A DNA stretch of 60,269 nucleotides, the filler included, from Porpidia crustulata (lineage: Eukaryota): assembly GCA_964255105.1 (NCBI GenBank). It is 12 parts of 12 records of this genome, joined end to end, with 100 filler letters (N's around TTAATTAATTAA, not from the genome) between each part and the next. Parts side by side here need not be neighbours in the genome. Positions count along the whole stretch, not along the records: positions 1 to 4,945 come from CAXUWE010001955.1; 11 more parts are not named here. One strand, given 5' to 3'. Of the stretch, positions 1-11,337 are shown piece after piece (positions within the stretch are counted from its first letter, which is position 1; each line of letters opens with the position of its first letter). A program made the position numbers and the translations under genes. Under the pieces are notes generated by a model. It was given only the letters and a program-made list of their open reading frames with translations. It did not search any database and had not been told where the DNA came from.

Positions 1-305
1 GTGCCGAAGTACCCAAGCTTTGATAAATTCACAACGATCTAATTCGGAGGGTTTTAGGAGAAGCTGGTAGGACTTACACCGGGTGTAAATAACCCTTTAG
101 CAGACATCCTATCCGGCTAGGGAGCAGGACCTGGTTTCTATGAGGGAGCGGTTGTGATCCGGCTACGGAACCTTTGGTTAATGCATATCCTGAACCCCGG
201 GCTTAATGGCCTTTTCTATGCCATCTGCGATGACGGACACCGCTTGAGTTTCAGCAGCCATACCTCCCGTGTCGTGTCCCAATGTATGCCGGATTAAATC
301 ACCAC

Positions 306-1560
306 TTACGCGGCCGTCATCTCCGTCTGCATTCCCTTCACGCTCTTCCACTCCATTGCCACGCTGCCAACGCTCGTCAGGCATGCCATAACGAGGACAA
401 CCTGAAAAACATTGACCAAGGCATCATTGTACGTTTGGATGACTCCTTGCAAAAACTCCGGCGGGATTATATTGCGAATCTCGGTCGCACCTGCACGCGC
501 CGCGGCCGCTGCACTCACTCCTGGGACGTTCCGGGCGATATAGGTAATCAACTTATTGGTGAGCACGCTGTTGCCCACGGAGACGAATACGGAAGCACCG
601 AAGAGTTGCAGGAAAATCATCGTGGCCGTCGCGATGGGAATCTCAGACATGTCGAGTACGGTCTGAACAGCGATCAATGGCGGTTGCAGGCCTAGACCGA
701 TACCGAAGCCCAGAATAACTTGGTACCCGATCCATGCCGAATGGCCGGTACTAGGTTCGAAGGTAAGGAGTAGACCGGCACCGATAGATGTCAACACCGA
801 GCTGGCGAGCATGAAGGGGGTGTAATAGCCGATCTTGGAAACACTGGCACCAGAAAGTATCGTTCCCACGACGACAGACAGCAAAATCGGAATGTTCCTA
901 ATACCGGACTTGTATGCGCTGACGCCCTTCACGACCTGAAACCAGATCGGGAGGTAGTAGATTACCACGAAGAAGGCGGAGCCCATAGCGAAGGTAAAAA
1001 TGCCCGCGGCCCAGACGCTTCGTTTCTTGATCATATCCGGACGAATGGTGGCGTATTCTGGTCTCCAAAATTGGACGCCAATGAAGACTACCATGCAAAC
1101 CCCGAAGACGACCAGGAGGGCAATGATGCGGCCGCTGGACCAGGGATAGGTGGAGCCCCCTATCTGAAGCGCAACAAGCAGACAGACCACTCCGGGAAGG
1201 AAGAAGGTCGTTCCTATGATGTCAAATTGCTGTGCACGCTTTTTCCATGGGAGTGATGTAAGTTGACTTTCTTGAGCAATCGGCTTGAAGAATACAATAA
1301 CCGCGACAGCGACGCCACCAATGGGAAGGTTGATGTAGAAGCACCATCGCCACGAAACCTTCACGGTGAATGCTCCACCTGTATTGCGTTAGCAGATGAA
1401 ATCCCTATTTATCAACGAAGATGTTATGACGAGACATGAATGTGTGGTGCAGCCAGCTCCATAGAGAAGTACTACAGAAGGCAGATTGTGACGATGAGAA
1501 GAGACGCATCCTACCTAGTAAAGGTCCAACGACGGAAGCGATGCCGTACATGCCTCCAAT
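306..1560 (-). CDS. MFS drug/toxin efflux transporter moiety (DHA2, 14-TM, AflT/GliA-like), TM5 to C-terminus only
   Basis: GPLLGG motif C, SWRWCFYINLPIGG, multiple hydrophobic helices and the C-terminal MEWKSVK. No TM1-4 or motif A is found upstream. Confidence 0.9.
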
Positions 1561-3048
1561 GCTGTTGAATGTTTGGATCATAGTCAAGTCTCGAACCCGA
1601 AGAAGCGCTTCTTCCACAATGCTGATAGAGCCTGGGAGAGGAAGAACAGTGTCCATGATGACCAGGCGCGCGCGCGGATTCGCTTTCAAAGCCTCTAGAT
1701 GGTTCCTGAGGATATTTAGTGCATCTGCGGCAGGCCAGTCGTGCAGAATCATTCGGAAGAGATAGACATCAGCGCCTTCAAGGGTTTGTGGGGCAAAAAA
1801 GTCGTGATTCTTGGTGCTTATACGTGAGCGTATGGTCTCGGGATGGGAAGAAAGTAAGGCGGAACTATGAGCGATCGTGTCGGGGAGATCTTCGACCACA
1901 AATCTAAGGCTGGGGAAAACTTCTGCGAGTGCGATGCTAGAGCTGCAGGTGGACCCGCCCACCTGTCTTCATGGTTAATGAGAGGTCCTATAAGACAAGA
2001 GATGGGCACCACGATGAAAACATACATCAACGATAACGGCCTCGCCCAGACTTTCCCAATCGTATCCGGTCTGCAAATGCTTAAGGCTGGTTCCGGTGCT
2101 AGCTTGTACATTCTTCATGTACAATGCAAACTGCTTGGAGGTTTCTGGGGACTGCGCAAAGAAGTCGAAAAAGGGTCCGTCAGTACGAGTGGCTACGTTG
2201 AAAGCTGTCTGGTTTTTCTTGTCAGTAGTACCCCACTTCTCGGTTGTCTGCGCAAAAGCCGCTGCGGTCGGCATCGGGTATTGGGCCATGAAGTCGATCC
2301 AATTCGTAAATCCGGTGTTCGTGACGAAAAGGCGAGAGACCGAATTGTGGGCAACGCTATGGAGAGTAGGCTGAGATAAGAAGTTGCTGGTCATAGCCAT
2401 ACGTACGACACTCTTCAGTTGGGATTCGGGCACGCCTGTTGTTTTCGCGAGTTTGGTGTAAGAAATGGAGCCGTGGAGGGGAATCGAGGGGAGGATTTGA
2501 AAGCGAGATAGCCATCGGAGGCATGAGAGTACTTGATACTACAACTCAAGTCAGAGATTGCGTATGTCGATGCCATTGGCAGCGTGTAGCGATCGGACCT
2601 GGCATTGGACCAGAATATGGATCAAGGATAGTAAAACATCATTTACAGAGATACATTGTGTATTCTCTCATTTGGACATCAAAAATGGAATTACCAAACG
2701 AACGTCAACATTGGATGAAACGAGATCAAAACGAACATGAATAGCTAGATTAGGGAGGTACTCCGCCGGCTCCAGGACCACTTGCTGAATCATAGCCGCG
2801 GAAGCGATAATCTTCTGTCGAGCAGCTTGGATATCGAGAGGAGCCGTGGGAGGGATAGTGATAGCTGGCGCCTCCGGATCGAAGGCTGGGTGCGGTAAAG
2901 CATTCTCATCGCAGTAAGCGGTGATCGTTTCCGCTGCTGCGCTGATTTCGTTCACATATGTCTGAAGCGGAGGAACGCTGATTTCAGGTTGTGGTTGAGA
3001 GATTCCATTACGAACATGGGCCATTTTTGTTGACATTTTATGATGCAA
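306..3048 (-). CDS. Chimeric ORF: secondary-metabolite O-methyltransferase (AurJ-like) fused in frame to the C-terminal part (TM5 onward) of a DHA2-family MFS transporter. Exons 3048-2737, 2538-2026, 1962-1515, 1378-306; about 781 aa
   Basis: All three introns have GT..AG ends and branch-like motifs, and the exons sum to 2346 nt in frame. OMT motifs: LSCLRWL, GVPESQLKSVVRMAMT, IVDVGGS, HDFF, YLFRMILHDWP, IMDTVLP, RDLTMIQTFNS. These run directly into MFS motif C (IGGMYGIASVVGPLLG|GAFT), then WRWCFYINLP, YYLPIWFQ, GYYTPFM and MEWKSVK. The start codon could be 3048 or 3036. Confidence 0.8.
1561..3048 (-). CDS. O-methyltransferase moiety (SAM-dependent, Methyltransf_2 type), lacking the usual C-terminal ~40 aa
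   Basis: N-terminal dimerisation region (LPHPAFDPEAP...AARQKII), SAM-binding DVGGS and the LHDW catalytic motif. It ends at FNS, without the following KER...W segment typical of this family. Confidence 0.85.
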
Positions 3049-4000
3049 GAAGGCGGATATTGTTATGGCCCGAGCTTGACGGGCAGACGATGAGTTCTGG
3101 ATATGTAGATGTCAAGCTGCAGGTCTTCAATGGAAAACCTGCGGGATCGGCTCCTTGAGCTGTTCCGCGACGGACACATAGGAGCATTCGGATTTCTAGC
3201 CTTACGCATGCTGTTGATGCATCAGCGTGGTGCACGAAAGGAGCAGAATCATGAAGAGTCTGAACGAGCGGCAGCTTGGGCGCCGGTCGGTATAGATTTC
3301 ATACGAAATCACTCGGATTTAGTGCGCCCCGAAAGAACTGGCGTGTACTCAATCCTTCTTTGGGAGAAAAGGGGCTCCTGCAACGTTGTCGGTCTTTTAC
3401 CGGCCTTGCCCTTCTTTTTCCCCTCGGGGCTTTCAGCGGCAAGGGCGCCCCTCTTTGCAGTACTGGTCCCTAAACCCGGGTAAACGACCGGAAATTGGTA
3501 CCCACGATTAAGCGCTAATATCCCTAAATAATCACATAATCTAGGCCGATACGCCGACAACAACCGACGACTACTTCCCGTTTCACAGCTCTTAACCCGT
3601 GGTACGCCCAACTATCGGTTTTCCATCGCGTGTTATCGGTATAATCCAGTCCTTGAATACGGAGCTGTAAATTGCTTGTTTCGCACAAACAGGTGCCCTT
3701 CATCGTATGTCCGAACAATTGAAGTGATTGGCGACAAGCAGCTATTCCTCCGACCTTGCGTTTGACCACGCTGACGTCAATCCGAATCCGTCCCTTCTGA
3801 TGGCGTTTCATCATGCCTCATGTTATTCCAATTATAACGATCTGTTCGTGGATAACCTTTTCATCGCTTGATACCATTTTTTGCGCCGATAACCAGTATT
3901 CTATTCAGCTGGCGAGTCGCTCTTATTGTATACCAAGAATATCTGCTTCTATGCCCAATTCACCGACAATTTCTCGTACATAACAATATCAATAAACAAG

Positions 4001-4945
4001 ATGATTATGGATAGCACTCTACGGATAGACAATCTATTCAACATAGACGGTCTGGTTGCTGTGATCACTGGTGGAGGCACAGGTTGGCAATCCCCTGTAA
4101 ATACGGAGCTTAAGGAGCCGACAACTGTTCACGTAGTTGCTTACGTTTTGTTGTGACCATCAGGCATCGGGAGAATGATGGCTATGGCGCTCGCAGAAAA
4201 CGGGGCGCACAAGATATACGTCGTCGGGAGGAGAGAGCAGCCACTCAAGGAGCTAGCGACCAAGTTCCCTGGGTATGCACCGTCCTAGATTTCCATGAGT
4301 ATTGCTTTATCTACAGACGTTCCATCAGAAAGCTATCTCGTTTACTGCCAGATTTAATTTTCGGAGAGCCTATGGGCTTATATTGATACGTCACAGTATC
4401 ATCATCCCGATGCGCGGCGACATCACCTCACAATCCGACCTCGAATCGATCCGCTCGCGCGTCAAAACCGAAGTCGGCTACATCAACGTCCTAGTCGCCA
4501 ACGCCGGAGTCACGGGCCCGATGCTCAAGGACCTCAAACCGCGACACACAATCTCGGACTTTGTCGACTTTGCCTGGAAGACGCCGATGCACGAGTTCAC
4601 CGACACGTACGCGCTCAACTGCACGGCCACGTATTACACCGTCCTCGTCTTCCTCGAGCTGCTGGACGAGGGCAACAAAAGCCGGTACCAGGGAGGCAAG
4701 AGCCAGGTCATCGCCACGGCGAGCACGGCCAGTTTTCTCCGCGACCCGAGGGCCGGGTACGCGTACTTGAGCAGTAAAGCGGCGGTCATCAGTCTGATCA
4801 AGTCGTTCTCGACCTTTTGCGCGCCGTGGGGGATCCGGTCAATGCTATCGCAGCGGGATGTTCGTGTCCATTTTTCCCTTTCCCTTTTCCGCTTTCCTCC
4901 CTCTTCATTTCTTCTTCTTCTTCAGGCTCTTAGTATCCCCTTGAC
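4001..4945 (+). CDS. Short-chain dehydrogenase/reductase, 3'-truncated by the contig end. Exons about 4001-4082, 4164-4272, 4397-4859; apparent 1-nt frameshift near 4837
   Basis: VAVITGGGTG|IG Rossmann motif across intron 1, VGRR, GDIT, LVANAG and catalytic YLSSK. Divergent from the OMT gene. Confidence 0.85.
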
Positions 4946-5045
4946 NNNNNNNNNNNNNNNNNNNNNNNNNNNNNNNNNNNNNNNNNNNNTTAATTAATTA
5001 ANNNNNNNNNNNNNNNNNNNNNNNNNNNNNNNNNNNNNNNNNNNN
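4946..5045. other. Artificial contig linker (44N-TTAATTAATTAA-44N). Identical linkers at 9984, 15019, 20052, 25085, 30117, 35146, 40175, 45203, 50228, 55249
   Basis: The same 100-nt spacer, with stops in all six frames, occurs 11 times at ~5.03 kb spacing. Confidence 0.98.
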
Positions 5046-5418
5046 AGCCACAACAACGCTCGGGGCTTTTGGATTCTCACTGTCAAAATCTCACCTTCTC
5101 TCCGCGTGGCCGGCGATCAGGAAATTCAGGATGAAGTTGCGGCTTAAAGCAGCGACAGCACCCGGAGTGCTATCCTAGCCTCTGTGCCTCTCCACCTTCA
5201 ACACGGCAAGGACTAAGGAGGGTGGGAGGATACTTCTGATCGTCCCCCCGAGTTTCAAAGTCAGCAAGGTAGGCCACGTGCCGAAGTGCCGATCCCAATA
5301 GCAGACAGGTTTCTGGCAACCAACAAGGACCGCCTCGCCTCGCCCCGCCGGTTCGCCATCCACAGTCCGCATGTTGGAAGGGATTGCGGGATAGTAGCAA
5401 GAGAAGGGGATAGATATA

Positions 5419-5446
5419 CTTGAGACTTGAGACTTGAGACTTGAGA
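5419..5446. repeat. Tandem repeat (CTTGAGA)x4
   Basis: Directly visible perfect 7-bp tandem repeat. Confidence 0.9.
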
Positions 5447-7717
5447 TTGGAAGATGGGTTTGACAGCCACGACATGTACCATTTTTGTTCATTGTCATAG
5501 ATGATACTTTGAAAACAAGCAAGCCAGCGTCTTCTCACATGCAACAGACAGCCAGGCTCCCAGAAGTCAAGAAGGCTGACCGACTACTTGCTAATGGGAA
5601 GCCGGTATCTCTTCACTAAAATAAGACCTACCTAGATAGGTAATTTCTTTTACTCCACCATTACCCTGACGTGGGTGAAGTACCCCAACGTCTTTTCTCC
5701 AGGGCCAATTGGGAACAATGCCATGAGAGTGGGTGGTGGGTGTCTCTTTTACTTTACCGACCCCCACACCGGAGATGCTGGCAATCTGCATCATGGCCCC
5801 GGAAGGCAAGCCAACTTCCCCGGCCGACGCAGACCCCCCAGCAATCCTTCGAAAATGCCGACCCGTTCCACATCCATGGAATTTCCATCTCCACTCACGA
5901 GTCAAGATGCTCAACCAATCTCCCCCCCCTTCGCTGACCCTTCTATGCTTTGTTATTCCCACACGCACACACTTATCGGAATACATGCGATCCATTCGCG
6001 ATGTGTCTGTAACGATAAGGCGATGACAAACTCCAAATATCCCGATTCCACAGGATCATAACGTTTCTCGGGATCTCAGGCTTCATATGCGCCTCTACTC
6101 ATGTCAACCCCAGATTCTACTCGATCCAGTGTCCAGTCTGACTCAGTAGTCGTCACGTTTTCTTGACCGCCAGACGGAATGACTTCGGAGACATCCATGT
6201 TCGTGGAGGGTTTAAATCTACATAGTACGCACAAAATAACAAGTAATAATCAAGTCTCATCTGACCCCATCTGACCATCAGTAAGTGATTGCCTTCCATG
6301 CCACGGGGGAGGCTGGAATAGGGTATCACGTGGAGTTTGTGGAGATAAGCTTCAAACGTCCCTCAGTACCTTATTCATCTCCACCTCGCTCGATCTAGAC
6401 GATTCGGAATCTCGACGCGGACTGTGTACCGCGGAGTCGGCAAACGAAAGTATGCACCCCCCCCAAAACGAACAACTCCAGGCTTGATTTGGACAGAAAG
6501 TTTATTCACTGTCGCACGTGGATGTCAATTTCAGGAAATGTACAATCGTAACAAGGTTTATGGCGCCGCCACGCGTACCGCCTTCTCGCCATCACCTGCC
6601 AGCTCCAGGCCTTTCAGGACGCCTGGGGTCTATGGTAGTGGTAAGTAGTGGCGATGCGTGCCTGGCTCTACCGTGGGCGTGGTGCTTTCTGTGGTGGGGT
6701 ACAACCGTACGAATCGTTTGCTTGGAACGGGAATGATACTTGAGCAGCATAATTGACATGATCCTGATTCAATCATCGTGCATTCTGCATCAACCCCCTG
6801 AATCACCGTATTTGAACGCGTAGATACAGATGTAGATGCCAATCCTGGCATCGCTTTTTCCTTTGCGGTCGCAAGCAATAATGCAAGAGAATTGAGGTTC
6901 AAGGACTTCTTCACTTCAGGAAACTACGCATGCATGATGCCTTCTCCTTTCATCCTATGACTTAAGTTTCCTGCTATTCCTTATCCGTTTGTAATCCAAG
7001 CTCCCTTCCTTGGACTACGCACTCGATCATGATGGTAGGCTACATAGTCCGAATGACCCTCAGACGCTTGTTTCGGCGTCATTCCGGAGAGAATTTCTCC
7101 TTCACTCAACTTTGAACGTGATCGCGCTTGAAACGCAATGAAAAGATATCTGGGGTGTCTTCAACCTAGCTAGGCAGCACCAGCAATTGGCTCGTCTACC
7201 TAACCACTTTCAAATCCGTAATAGTCTTGCTTAGGCATGTCCTTCAATTCAATTTCTGAACAAAATCTCGAAAATTTCTGAAGTCATCATGGGCTACGGC
7301 AGCCACCACAAGTCAGACAGGTCAAAAGTTCAAACGAAAATAGCCGTTTGTCTGATAGAGAATTGTCGGTTCTTCACAGCTTCAGAAGCACCATCCCATT
7401 TCAAACGGCTTTGAGACTTCAGGTCTCTTATCAAAAATATATTGGTAAGAATGCGTTTGCCATGTAAGAACCTACCATGCAAAGGTTTCGGGCAGCTTGG
7501 CTGTTCGCCAAAACCTCTTCCAAGCCAAATCCCGTGGATTTCATCATCTTCGCACGGGTGTATGCATTTGTTTTATTTCCAGGCATGCTGCCTTTGAGCT
7601 CCTTTCGAAGATTCACGTAATAAGGTGATGATCTGTCTTTCTTCTACGAGTGTGTGACAGTTCTGCTTCAGAAATACTTTTGTTTTTTTAGATTACTTAC
7701 CTCGCAACACTGAAAGA

Positions 7718-9872
7718 ATGGGATCCAATGGGGCTATGGTGCTAGACAATGGTAAACCTATCCCCTCTGTTGTGCTCCTCTAAGTATAAGACTGAATCAA
7801 GAGACACTGTAGATATCAGCGTTCCTGATGTTCCTGACGAGCTTGAGCTTCCTGACGAGCTTGATGTTCCTGACGAGCTTGATGAACTCCAGACCACTTC
7901 ATCCCTTGAAGGTCTTCAGACAGATGAGCAGCGGCGAGTCCTAGATATCATCGCCCAACTCCGTAAATGTGGCCTTGAAAGCGTCCTTTCACTACCCCAG
8001 CTCGTTGTTTGTGGCGACCAATCAGCCGGGAAGAGTTCTGTGCTGGAAGCCCTGACGGAGATCCCATTCCCGAGGAACGATAATCTTTGCACCCGTTTTG
8101 CGACTGAGATTATTCTACGCCGGGCGGTTACTAACTCGCTCACTATCAAAGTAATAGCGGACACGAAACGACCCAGTAATGAGCAAGAAGCAATTGGTGC
8201 TTTCGAAGAATCCATCACAAACTTTGATGAGCTCCCTCGCGTCATGACCGAGGCCATGAAAGTCATGGGCTTGGATAGCTTGGACAGCACATCGATTTCA
8301 GCTTCCAATGCCAAGGCCTTCGCCAAAGATGTACTGAGCATTTTGATAGAAGGTCCATCAAGGCCTCAGCTTACCCTAGTAGACCTTCCTGGTCTAATCC
8401 AGAATCAGACCAAGGGCGTCACAGAAGCCGACGTGGACATGGTCAAGGAGATTACCGACAGTTACATTTGTAAACCCCGCACGATTTGCCTCGCTGTCAT
8501 CACTGCAACCAATGATTACGCCAACCAAGTAATCGTGACAAAGGTCCAAAAAGTTGATCCCAACGGAAACCGTACGCTCGGCATTATCACCAAGCCTGAC
8601 AGATTGCCTGCGGGCTCAGGGAGCGAACAGGCGTTCCTGAATCTAGCAAGAAACGGTGATATTTTCTTCAGCCTAGGCTGGCATGTACTCAAAAACCGTG
8701 CTTTCGAGGAGGGTGGTTGCTCGTTGCTAGAGCGCAACGCCTCGGAGGCTGCTTTCTTTAGGAAGTCCAATTTCAAGACTCTTCCAGGCGAGTGTGTTGG
8801 AATCGACTCGCTGAGACATCGTCTCAGCCAGCTGCTATTCGATCACATCAAGCAAGAGCTCCCGCAATTGCGAGAAGATCTCGATACGGCATTAGCTGAT
8901 ACCAAGAGCGAGTTGAGTACGTTGGGTGACTGCCGAACAACAGCGCAAGATTGCAGGACATATCTTATGCAGCTCAGCCTCGGCTATCGTGATGTTTGTA
9001 GAGCAGCTGTTGGAGGGAATTATGAGGGCGACTACTTTAAGCATAACACTGATAACAGCTTTTCCGTCAGCTCCTCCTCGACCATCCGCAGACTACGTGC
9101 AGTGATTCAGTATATGAACACTCAATTTTCTGACACTGTTCGTACAAGGGGTCACAAGTACCATGTAAAAGTATCCGGAGATCTCAAGCACCCGGAAATT
9201 CCCCCTCTTGCTGATGAGCCGTGTGAGGACAGTTCTGATGAGGACATTACTCCACACGCTTCCAATACTCACAACAGTCTTTCGGCTCTGAACTCCATGG
9301 AACCCACCAAATTGTCGAAATCTCAAGCGCTCGCATGGGTTAAACAAGTCCTTACCAGGACTCGCGGGAAAGAGCTTCCAGGCAATTTCAACCCATTATT
9401 GATTGGCGAACTGTTCTGGGAACAGTCTTCCAAGTGGCGCCGCTTGGCAGCAGATCACTTGGAAAAAGTGGCAAGCGTTTGCAGCCGTTTCGCCGCGGAT
9501 TTCTTCCAGCAAAATTGTCCTAAAGACGTCCATTCTCGGCTCTGGTCATCCAAAATTCAAGGCGAGATGAAGACGCGCACCAAGGCCGCAGTAGAAGAGA
9601 TGGATCGGATCATGATGGACCTTCAACATTATCCCATCAATTACAATCACTACTATACCGATACGGTCAAGAAGAGACGCCAAGCCAGGCACAAGGAATC
9701 TCTCGCGGATATCGTTGAGGGTGCAACCTCACTTACTCACCCTGATGCCTTTAGCAGGTCCACGAGTATCGATGTCGACAAAGTCGTCGGCCAGTACTCC
9801 GAGCGGATAGACCCAGACATGGAAAAGCACAGCTGCGAAGAAGCCCTCGACTGCCTCTTTTCCATCTACAAG
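7718..9872 (+). CDS. Dynamin-superfamily (Mx-like) GTPase, 3'-truncated; the GED exon lies beyond the contig end. Probable exons 7718-7751 and 7813-9872
   Basis: G1 LPQLVVCGDQSAGKSS, G2 LCTRF, G3 DLPG, G4 TKPD, LGWHVLKNR, and RGKELPGNFNP in the middle domain. A phase-1 intron (7752-7812, GTAAAC..TAG) gives the N-terminus MGSNGAMVLDND. A GCAAGT donor follows YK. Confidence 0.88.
7827..7880 (+). repeat. 18-bp coding tandem repeat x3 (DVPDEL/ELPDEL/DVPDEL)
   Basis: GATGTTCCTGACGAGCTT / GAGCTTCCTGACGAGCTT / GATGTTCCTGACGAGCTT. Confidence 0.9.
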
Positions 9873-11337
9873 GCAAGTCCTCGTCCCCTACAATCCTAAC
9901 CATCCCGTGCCCCCCCACCCCCACCCAACCATAAAAAGGCCCCAACCCCCCCACAACAAAAAACCCCCACCACCGGCACCACANNNNNNNNNNNNNNNNN
10001 NNNNNNNNNNNNNNNNNNNNNNNNNNNTTAATTAATTAANNNNNNNNNNNNNNNNNNNNNNNNNNNNNNNNNNNNNNNNNNNNACCCGAGTCCCCGCCTG
10101 GTATTAGGAATGAATGGGCTTGATTGTTTCCGGGGGACTTTGGAGGAGGTGTTGTGTTGAGGGGATTTTTGCGCTGGCGGGGGGGTTTGGGGTGCTAGCG
10201 TTGCTTTTGCCGCGAGATAGGTAGATCTTTATTGGTCAATCTATCACGACTTTTCGGTAGATTGTACATATCGTATCTCTTCAAATAACCGAGAATAGTA
10301 GTTTTCCTCGGAAGTTGCAAAAAAAAAAGTGCATGACTAGTACATATGATTTACACATATGTGAGGCCCCACGGCTTCACAGTCCTAAATCATTCGACTC
10401 CCGTACTACCTGGTTTTACATGATGGTTTCATTCCACGCGCTAGAGCGCAATCAGATTCGGAGGTGAACTCCCCCTCCCCCGTTCCACTCAAACATGCAA
10501 ACCAGGTTCATTCCTGTTACATAAAAATATGGAAGATTGCGAATTTGGCTCACTTTCCGAGTCTGACTTTGTATCTGAGATCGAGCAGGAAGGCATAGTT
10601 CGAGGTCGTCGTTGCAACAGCTCAAGAGGAACAGGCACTTATCCAGGGGAGAAGGGGGAATTGAAGGTTTGGGATCGTCGCGGAGTAAAAGAAGTTGGTC
10701 TTAGTGGTGTCTTGTGGAGGAAGCAGCGGAAAGGAGGGTACAGAGGGTACAGAGGAGAGGGGAGGGGAGGGGATGGGAAAATGAGAGAGACAGTCTTTCC
10801 ATTGTTTTAGAGCCTCGAAAGTATTGAAACACGTTTCGTATATTCAGTCAGCAGACTTTTATTGGCATCGAATACTTTGGGATTCTGAAAATCATCGCTG
10901 CGGAGTGACCATGCGACGAAATGGTAGAATAGTCGTTCGCATCGGATGGTGCTCGACCTTGTTGGTCTGGTGAAGGACTGATACTGATACTTCAGACTAG
11001 GAATAGGGATATAGTGGTCTATCGTCAATTGGGCACGAGGAGAAGGATGGAGAAGTTATGAAGAGAGTTGGAAGCTCAAGTATTTGGAGGGTCTATTTGG
11101 TCGGATGCTAGGAATTTAGATCGTTATGAATGGGGAGATTTTGTTTATTTTGCAATTTTTCTGAGATCATAACGTGGAGGCTCTTAGAAGCACCCATGCT
11201 CAGGTAGATGCCAAGGAGTATCTTTAAATCGCCATTGCTCCCCCGTATAATACAACTCAGGGACCCACGCTTCACGAAGATCCAATCGCCAGGATGCCGG
11301 TACCCAAAGCGCCCTACTCCCTCGAACACATGTGGGT

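What the first reader, a model, noticed from the sequence alone, without database searches (positions are those of the whole stretch)
306..3048. In-frame O-methyltransferase::MFS efflux-pump fusion gene
Seen in sequence: one spliced ORF (4 exons, 2346 nt) with no stop or frameshift. The OMT sequence (..RVRDLTMIQTFNS) continues directly into MFS TM5 (IGGMYGIASVVGPLLG) at 1561/1560, inside exon 3, and the MFS intron 1514-1379 restores GG-AFTVKVSWRW exactly. Established: AurJ-type OMTs and DHA2 pumps are separate, often adjacent genes in fungal polyketide clusters. OMTs continue past FN(S/A) with KER and the final beta-strands, and DHA2 pumps need TM1-4 with motif A. Both are missing here. Inference, three options: (a) a recent in-frame deletion between two tandem cluster genes that disables both; (b) a membrane-anchored tailoring/export chimera, which would be a new architecture to my knowledge; (c) an assembly chimera. 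Loss of essential parts in both halves favours (a) or (c).
Basis: partly seen in the sequence, partly recalled or inferred. Interest (0 to 1): 0.8.

Follow-up and report, generated by a model that had tools for sequence, protein, structure and literature searches.

The report
Fusion scar in dying pigment-type cluster
In one lichen fungus, two neighbouring genes of a natural-product gene cluster were broken and joined in frame; both lost essential parts and the cluster's core enzyme is also broken, so this is most likely ordinary gene-cluster decay rather than a new kind of protein.

Summary
The fusion is real in the DNA. Four exons with GT-AG introns give a stop-free 777-aa ORF: 405 aa of O-methyltransferase joined at 1561/1560 to 372 aa of a 14-TM MFS pump. 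A second assembly, probably of the same sample, spans the junction unchanged. Both halves are cut where it matters. The OMT loses an invariant Glu-Arg pair, a helix and its last two beta-strands. The pump loses TM1-4 and the start of TM5. In relatives the orthologues are separate neighbours in an NR-PKS/halogenase/SDR cluster, and no other OMT-MFS fusion was found (0 of 243, 0 of 252). New here: this genome's cluster PKS has two in-frame stops and a thioesterase frameshift, and the adjacent SDR is frameshifted. At that lesion density, an unbroken 2.3-kb ORF is expected 18-36% of the time. Verdict: a non-functional rearrangement scar in a pseudogenising cluster (about 0.85). Deletion versus inversion is unresolved, because the syntenic relatives seen at DNA level have the two genes tail-to-tail. 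Low interest.

The parts
2737..3036 (-). Exon 1 of the O-methyltransferase gene (ATG at 3036; N-terminal helical/dimerisation region)
2539..2736 (-). OMT intron 1, 198 nt, GT..AG
2026..2538 (-). OMT exon 2 (171 aa)
1963..2025 (-). OMT intron 2, 63 nt, GT..AG
1561..1962 (-). OMT part of exon 3: SAM-binding DVGG motif and catalytic HDW motif kept; ends at FNS, two residues before the invariant Glu
1560..1561 (-). In-frame OMT/MFS junction. One shared base (A); a weak imperfect ~15-nt similarity lies just upstream, offset by about one codon
   Evidence: spanned by a Logan contig
1515..1560 (-). MFS part of exon 3: distal TM5 with most of antiporter motif C (first Gly lost)
1379..1514 (-). MFS-derived intron, 136 nt, GT..AG; shows that the fusion arose in genomic DNA, not through an mRNA
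   Evidence: absent at this place in L032
306..1378 (-). Exon 4: rest of the 14-TM DHA2-type MFS pump (end of TM5 to TM14) and stop codon; 90% identical to Usnochroma LQ338_006231
3037..4006 (.). Divergent intergenic region shared by OMT and SDR (same arrangement as L032/L033); inferred promoter of the chimera
   Evidence: function inferred
4007..4945 (+). Short-chain dehydrogenase gene of the same cluster, cut by the contig end; 1-nt deletion near 4838 relative to L032/L033 shifts the frame
   Evidence: this position is not covered by the second assembly
1..305 (.). 3' flank of the MFS up to the contig end (second-assembly piece here at depth about 4); under the inversion model the reciprocal MFS5'::OMT3' join would lie beyond position 1
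   Evidence: inference

Best explanation
A lineage-restricted DNA rearrangement broke two neighbouring genes of a halogenase-bearing non-reducing polyketide cluster in a Teloschistales-related lichen fungus. It joined the 5' 405 codons of the O-methyltransferase to the 3' 372 codons of the MFS efflux pump, in frame by chance. The product, if made, is neither a methyltransferase (second-shell Glu and two strands of the Rossmann sheet gone) nor a transporter (TM1-4 with motifs D1, A and B gone). It survives because the cluster is already dead, so nothing selects against the scar. Shown: junction, lost parts, separate orthologues, lesions in PKS and SDR. Inferred: inactivity, linkage of contig C240 to C1955, recent age. 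Mechanism, my estimate: deletion between tandem genes about 60%, inversion from a tail-to-tail layout about 35%, other 5%.
For: Second assembly spans the junction: X1 contig of 4274 nt covers 243-4488 at depth 10.6 with 0 differences. Window OMT is sister to Letrouitia Q9214_002428 (97/83). Window MFS sits in a clade with Q9214_002427 (98/96) and Usnochroma (100/100). Those two Letrouitia genes have consecutive tags on a 6429-nt contig. L032/L033 show intact MFS, OMT, SDR, halogenase and PKS as separate genes. The own-genome contig C240 holds the halogenase and a SAT-KS-AT-PT-ACP-ACP-TE PKS in the same order. That PKS, spliced unrepaired through 7 GT-AG introns, has stops at codons 346 and 1400 and an off-frame TE end; the PT stop aligns through to PksA; the TE has +1 nt against L032/L033. 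The SDR has -1 nt. Other PKS matches in the same assembly lie in open frames of 1413-2502 aa, so sequencing error is an unlikely cause. E400/R401 are invariant in 57 of 57 OMTs; helix 403-412 and strands 418-426 and 434-442 lie after the cut. The junction falls inside helix 173-203, the fifth TM. With 3-5 PKS lesions, 1.0-1.7 are expected in the fused ORF, so P(0)=0.36-0.18.
Against: The fused ORF itself shows no decay. Only 2 of 26 derived MFS changes hit conserved columns (177 of 356; P=6e-6 against neutral spread), and 4 of 118 conserved OMT columns differ, like intact orthologues. Splice sites and catalytic HDW are intact. This fits a recent event but equally fits continued selection. The halogenase is intact (548 aa). 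C240 and C1955 do not overlap, so their linkage rests on synteny. The SDR lesion is near a contig end and not covered by the second assembly. The second assembly is probably from the same sample, and raw reads were not seen.
Confidence: 0.85

Rival explanations
1. Functional or selected chimera: the OMT N-terminal dimerisation region and partial SAM domain are tethered to a 10-helix membrane anchor and kept for a non-catalytic role (scaffold, ligand binding, or a half-pump that dimerises through the OMT domain).
For: Open frame, intact splice sites, retained HDW and DVGG motifs, and substitutions that avoid conserved columns in both halves. The N-terminal domain of this OMT fold mediates dimerisation (10.1101/491761, passage). 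This OMT family does form real fusions, with FAD monooxygenases (ElcB type).
Against: Invariant Glu-Arg and two core strands lost; TM1-4 and motifs D1, A, B lost. The pathway PKS is broken, so no substrate would be made. 0 of 243 OMT and 0 of 252 MFS relatives show the fusion; the 90%-identical Usnochroma pump is unfused. An unbroken frame is expected by chance at this lesion density.
Confidence: 0.07
2. Assembly or library chimera joining two loci.
For: Coverage is low (contig depth about 10). The assembly is fragmented (22.9 Mb, 2447 contigs). Only one run holds the stretch, and it may be the source sample. Raw reads were not available.
Against: A separately built contig spans the junction without a difference, at depth like other contigs of that run (10.6 vs 10.8), with no loose end listed at 1560 (22 weaker loose ends were not shown). 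No orthologue-level OMT tail (best other match 34%) or orphan MFS N-half (best N-terminal matches 55-61%, on contigs that also match the C-half) exists in G000. The two halves are orthologues of genuine neighbours, which a random misjoin would not favour.
Confidence: 0.05
3. The fusion is one breakpoint of an inversion, and a reciprocal MFS5'::OMT3' gene lies beyond the contig end. This is a sub-case of the best explanation; the confidence given is for this mechanism.
For: L032/L033, which share the OMT-SDR-halogenase-PKS order, have MFS and OMT convergent, 697 nt apart, and one inversion yields this junction. The contig ends 305 nt after the MFS stop. None of the orthologous loci read at DNA level has OMT upstream of MFS on the same strand (L031/L034/L035 have MFS first).
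Against: The reciprocal product is not in G000, though G000 is probably incomplete (Teloschistales assemblies listed in PMC9907504 are 24-40 Mb; passage). Gene order in this cluster is fluid (tags 2-10 apart in other genomes). The orientation in the closest relatives is unknown. Deletions are commoner than inversions (general knowledge).
Confidence: 0.3

Closest known systems
Pseudogenising secondary-metabolite clusters, e.g. Aspergillus fumigatus cluster 4, half-lost gliM O-methyltransferase and half-lost fmqE permease (PMC5711037, passages)
   Same: Nonsense and frameshift lesions in several genes of one cluster; loss of the second half of an OMT and of the first half of a transporter.
   Different: There the two truncations are separate events in separate clusters; here one event joins the remaining halves in frame.
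Lichen PKS14-type cluster (Pseudevernia furfuracea cluster 8; Cladonia uncialis CU-PKS-4, MIBiG '6-hydroxymellein') (PMC8533459 Table 3; PMC12848540 passage)
   Same: [quoted passage not shown]
   Different: Here the PKS and SDR are broken, OMT and transporter are fused remnants, and no close FAD-monooxygenase orthologue was found (best 41%). Placement in the PKS14 clade was not tested by phylogeny, and the product is unknown.
Bik3/AurJ/PgmB-like fungal class I O-methyltransferases (PF00891); nearest solved folds PdxI/HpiI, GedA, LepI, OxaC
   Same: N-terminal helical region, DVGG and HDW motifs; 72% identity to the closest intact relative.
   Different: Lacks E-R, the last helix and the last two strands.
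DHA2 (14-TM) fungal MFS pumps of AflT/RoqT/TOXA type (PF07690)
   Same: TM5-TM14, 90% identical to an unfused Usnochroma pump.
   Different: Lacks TM1-4 and the start of TM5.
ElcB-type OMT::FAD-monooxygenase fusions (CTB3 likeness recalled)
   Same: The same OMT family fused at its C-terminus to another cluster gene product.
   Different: Those keep the whole OMT domain including the E-R motif and last strands and recur in many genomes; this one truncates both partners and was seen once.

Membership tests
Active class I O-methyltransferase (PF00891) | SAM-binding DxGG motif and catalytic His (HDW) | tested here: met
   D264, G266, G267, H338, D339, W340 are invariant in 57 relatives and present in the window protein
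Active class I O-methyltransferase (PF00891) | Second-shell Glu of the His-Glu dyad | tested here: not met
   E400 is invariant in 57 of 57 and lies two residues after the cut. The dyad is described in 10.1101/491761 (passage). Equivalence to LepI E350 is inferred from alignment end points, not seen residue by residue.
Active class I O-methyltransferase (PF00891) | Complete Rossmann sheet including the last two strands | tested here: not met
   AlphaFold model of intact relative P0005 (pLDDT 91.7): strands 418-426 and 434-442 and helix 403-412 lie beyond the junction at 398
Active class I O-methyltransferase (PF00891) | Methyl-transfer activity | not testable with these tools
   needs an enzyme assay
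DHA2 14-TM MFS antiporter | TM1-4 with motif D1 (TM1), motif A (loop 2-3) and motif B Arg (TM4) | tested here: not met
   Helices 51-85, 88-115, 118-137 and 142-170 of model P0235 precede the junction at I183; R149 and G110 invariant; motif positions from PMC10604125 (passages)
DHA2 14-TM MFS antiporter | Motif C in TM5 | tested here: inconclusive
   GP-xx-GG kept, first Gly (G181 in P0235) lost
Lichen PKS14-type cluster | Gene content: NR-PKS with tandem ACP and TE, halogenase, SDR, OMT, drug transporter | tested here: met
   linkage of C240 to C1955 inferred from synteny only
Lichen PKS14-type cluster | PKS falls in the PKS14 clade by KS/PT phylogeny | not tested
Conserved functional domain fusion | Recurs in independent genomes | tested here: not met
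   0 of 243 OMT and 0 of 252 MFS relatives; one run holds the DNA. Many database entries are single-exon fragments that could not show a spliced fusion.
Conserved functional domain fusion | Purifying selection after the fusion | tested here: inconclusive
   Changes avoid conserved columns, but pre- and post-fusion changes cannot be separated without a sister isolate

The most novel reading that the evidence does not exclude
The chimera is expressed from the OMT promoter and kept by selection as a new architecture: an OMT-derived dimerisation/ligand-binding module on a 10-helix MFS remnant, recruited after the pathway's PKS died, for example as a dimerising half-transporter or a membrane sensor for a halogenated aromatic.
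Probability: 0.06. Interest if true: 0.7.

Novelty: new member of a known kind. Interest (0 to 1): 0.2.

Why it matters
As most likely read, it is a small, well-documented case of a lichen natural-product cluster dying, and a warning that gene callers can turn such scars into 'novel multidomain proteins'. It predicts that this fungus no longer makes the cluster's (probably halogenated, O-methylated) polyketide. Comparing it with relatives that keep the cluster could help assign that product. Only if the chimera proved expressed and conserved would it matter as a new protein architecture.

Tried and rejected
RNA: no RNA holder listed; this says nothing on expression. Runs X2 and X3 gave only short paralogue matches. 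Microhomology, using relatives' MFS DNA as proxy: 10 of 15 matches against L032 (fraction of random pairs 0.006; 0.02 and 0.04 at other window sizes), 0.03-0.15 against L036, none against L030 (0.68-0.90). Window sizes were chosen after seeing the data, so it is a weak hint only. No repeat explains the junction. Relative-rate tests: 2 of 10 comparisons had p<0.05 for a faster window MFS; not relied on. Tandem duplication from an MFS-then-OMT layout was rejected, because SDR rather than MFS lies upstream and no intact copies exist. Retroposition or trans-splicing was rejected, because introns of both genes are present. Dropped or faulty rows: the L032 OMT row was mis-framed and was left out; the PKS splice models had wrong acceptors, so their stop lists are void (one search is the valid one; the Poisson figures depend only on length); SDR splice trials were off by a base (one search is valid for the window gene, while its L032 model is still mis-spliced, so the SDR lesion rests on the DNA alignment). 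L030's OMT is a paralogue and was not used for orientation. One search gave no relevant match for the PKS linker frame. The ESM Atlas returned only ordinary OMT clusters. The window's exon-3 products are not in the protein collection. Whole records behind the metagenome loci and earlier scan findings were not available. Literature: searches listed no paper describing an OMT-MFS fusion (listings and abstract starts only; open-licence library only; no supplements read).

Full report
Observation. The window is a concatenation of contigs separated by N spacers; only 1-4945 (contig C1955 of a 22.9-Mb, 2447-contig assembly) bears on the finding. Residues 1-405 are a Methyltransf_2 O-methyltransferase and 406-777 an MFS_1 transporter. 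The switch lies inside exon 3: its first 134 residues align to a Letrouitia OMT at 74% and end at FNS, and its last 15 match a Letrouitia MFS at 15 of 15.

Is it in the DNA? One public run holds the stretch. Its separately built contig covers 243-4488 at depth 10.6 with no difference or gap, and no loose end is listed at the junction (22 weaker loose ends were not shown). It is probably the same sample, so this excludes an assembler-specific join but is not independent biological replication. The missing pieces are not elsewhere in the assembly: the best other match to an orthologous OMT C-terminal fragment is 34%, and the best MFS N-terminal matches (55-61%) lie on contigs that also match the C-half.

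What was lost. In 57 aligned OMTs the E and R two and three residues after FNS are invariant. Of 243 relatives, 231 reach the junction, and 207 of these continue with E-R/E-H. A confident model of the intact relative P0005 puts a helix and the last two strands of the Rossmann sheet after the cut; the fold matches PdxI/HpiI, GedA, LepI and OxaC. A His-Glu dyad is described as strictly conserved in functional OMTs (10.1101/491761, passage); that E400 is this Glu is inferred. In a model of the intact pump P0235 the junction is inside the fifth helix, so TM1-4 are gone, and with them motifs D1, A and B and the first Gly of motif C (PMC10604125, passages). Neither activity is expected (inference).

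Where the halves come from. Nearest named relatives are Teloschistales lichen fungi. The OMT is sister to Letrouitia sp. Q9214_002428 (97/83). The MFS groups with Usnochroma (90% identity, 100/100) and with Letrouitia Q9214_002427 (98/96). These two Letrouitia genes are separate, with consecutive tags on one 6429-nt contig, and the Usnochroma pump is unfused. Homologous pairs lie 2-10 tags apart in four other taxa. Of 15 metagenome loci, 6 carry an OMT within 10 kb. L032/L033 show FAD monooxygenase, MFS, OMT, SDR, halogenase and NR-PKS, all separate, with MFS and OMT tail-to-tail. L031/L034/L035 have MFS followed by OMT. L030's OMT is a paralogue. No relative combines the two domains: 0 of 243 OMT rows and 0 of 252 MFS rows. 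These rows are the listed best hits only (120 of 386, 120 of 894, 150 of 3356), and many are single-exon fragments that could not show a fusion.

The cluster is decaying. The window keeps the divergent OMT-SDR pair. Contig C240 carries the halogenase and a SAT-KS-AT-PT-ACP-ACP-TE PKS in the L032 order; linkage is by synteny, not overlap. Spliced without repair, the PKS has a TGA at codon 346 in the SAT-KS linker, a TAG at codon 1400 and an off-frame end. The TAG sits in a stretch that aligns through to the PksA product-template domain. The TE has one extra base against L032/L033, ahead of the conserved His motif. The linker resembles a paralogue in another frame, which suggests two indels (inferred), and no in-frame ATG follows the upstream stop (an unseen upstream exon is possible). 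The SDR lacks one base near 4838 (less certain, near the contig end). The halogenase is intact. Other PKS matches in the assembly lie in open frames of 1413-2502 aa, so these are unlikely to be sequencing errors. Gene content matches the lichen PKS14-type cluster (PMC8533459 Table 3); clade membership was not tested.

Evidence against my reading. The fused ORF shows no decay: 2 of 26 derived MFS changes fall in conserved columns (P=6e-6 against neutral spread), and 4 of 118 conserved OMT columns differ. An unfused-status-unknown relative, P0218, looks plainly decayed by the same test (16 of 22). However, most of the window's changes may predate the fusion. If neutral, the fusion is younger than about 1.3-1.9% divergence. 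Scaling 3-5 PKS lesions to 2334 nt gives an 18-36% chance of no lesion. The open frame therefore needs no selection, but selection is not excluded.

Mechanism. The join is at DNA level, since introns of both genes remain. It has one shared base and a weak, post-hoc microhomology signal. A deletion needs an OMT-then-MFS tandem ancestor, which none of the loci read here shows. An inversion from the L032 layout needs a reciprocal MFS5'::OMT3' join, which is not in the incomplete assembly but would lie just beyond the contig end. I estimate about 60:35 for deletion, on general mutation frequency and the missing reciprocal product.

Comparison and verdict. Half-lost OMT and permease genes and multi-gene pseudogenisation are documented in Aspergillus fumigatus clusters (PMC5711037, passages). 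Real fusions of this OMT family, to FAD monooxygenases, keep the whole OMT domain. Nine paper searches listed no OMT-MFS fusion. Of nine papers I saw keyword passages only, and no supplements. Verdict: a real junction; a non-functional scar in a pseudogenising cluster (0.85); functional chimera 0.07; artefact 0.05; interest 0.2.

Noticed in passing
window 4946-5045 and ten more spacers about every 5 kb: The window is a concatenation of separate contigs joined by N44-TTAATTAATTAA-N44 spacers; neighbourhood beyond 4945 is not real.
   Followed up: yes
L073 (G000:C240) 2980-10260, minus strand: The cluster's NR-PKS is a pseudogene: stops at 9115 and 5844, +1 nt near 3150, apparently no start codon.
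   Followed up: yes
L073 (G000:C240) about 20-2202, minus strand: The flavin-dependent halogenase is intact (548 aa) beside the dead PKS; either chance or used by another pathway.
   Followed up: partly
protein P0218 (ENA, 4785-nt contig): A close MFS orthologue in another sample has 16 of 22 derived changes in conserved columns, suggesting independent decay of the same pump.
   Followed up: partly
window about 1290, minus strand: One-codon deletion in the Phe run at the end of TM6 relative to the closest orthologues.
   Followed up: no
L031, L034, L035: Order transcription factor, MFS, OMT on one strand, as in biruloquinone brq1-3; the OMT match there starts only at residue 75.
   Followed up: no
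L030 about 20180; protein P0426: Other OMT homologues appear to go off-frame right after the FNS motif.
   Followed up: no
proteins P0420, P0432, P0404: Long OMT-containing gene models with extra N-terminal parts (P0420's start resembles the SDR); possibly merged gene calls.
   Followed up: no
G000 whole assembly: No close orthologue (best 41%) of the FAD monooxygenase that flanks the MFS 5' end in L032; lost or in an assembly gap.
   Followed up: partly
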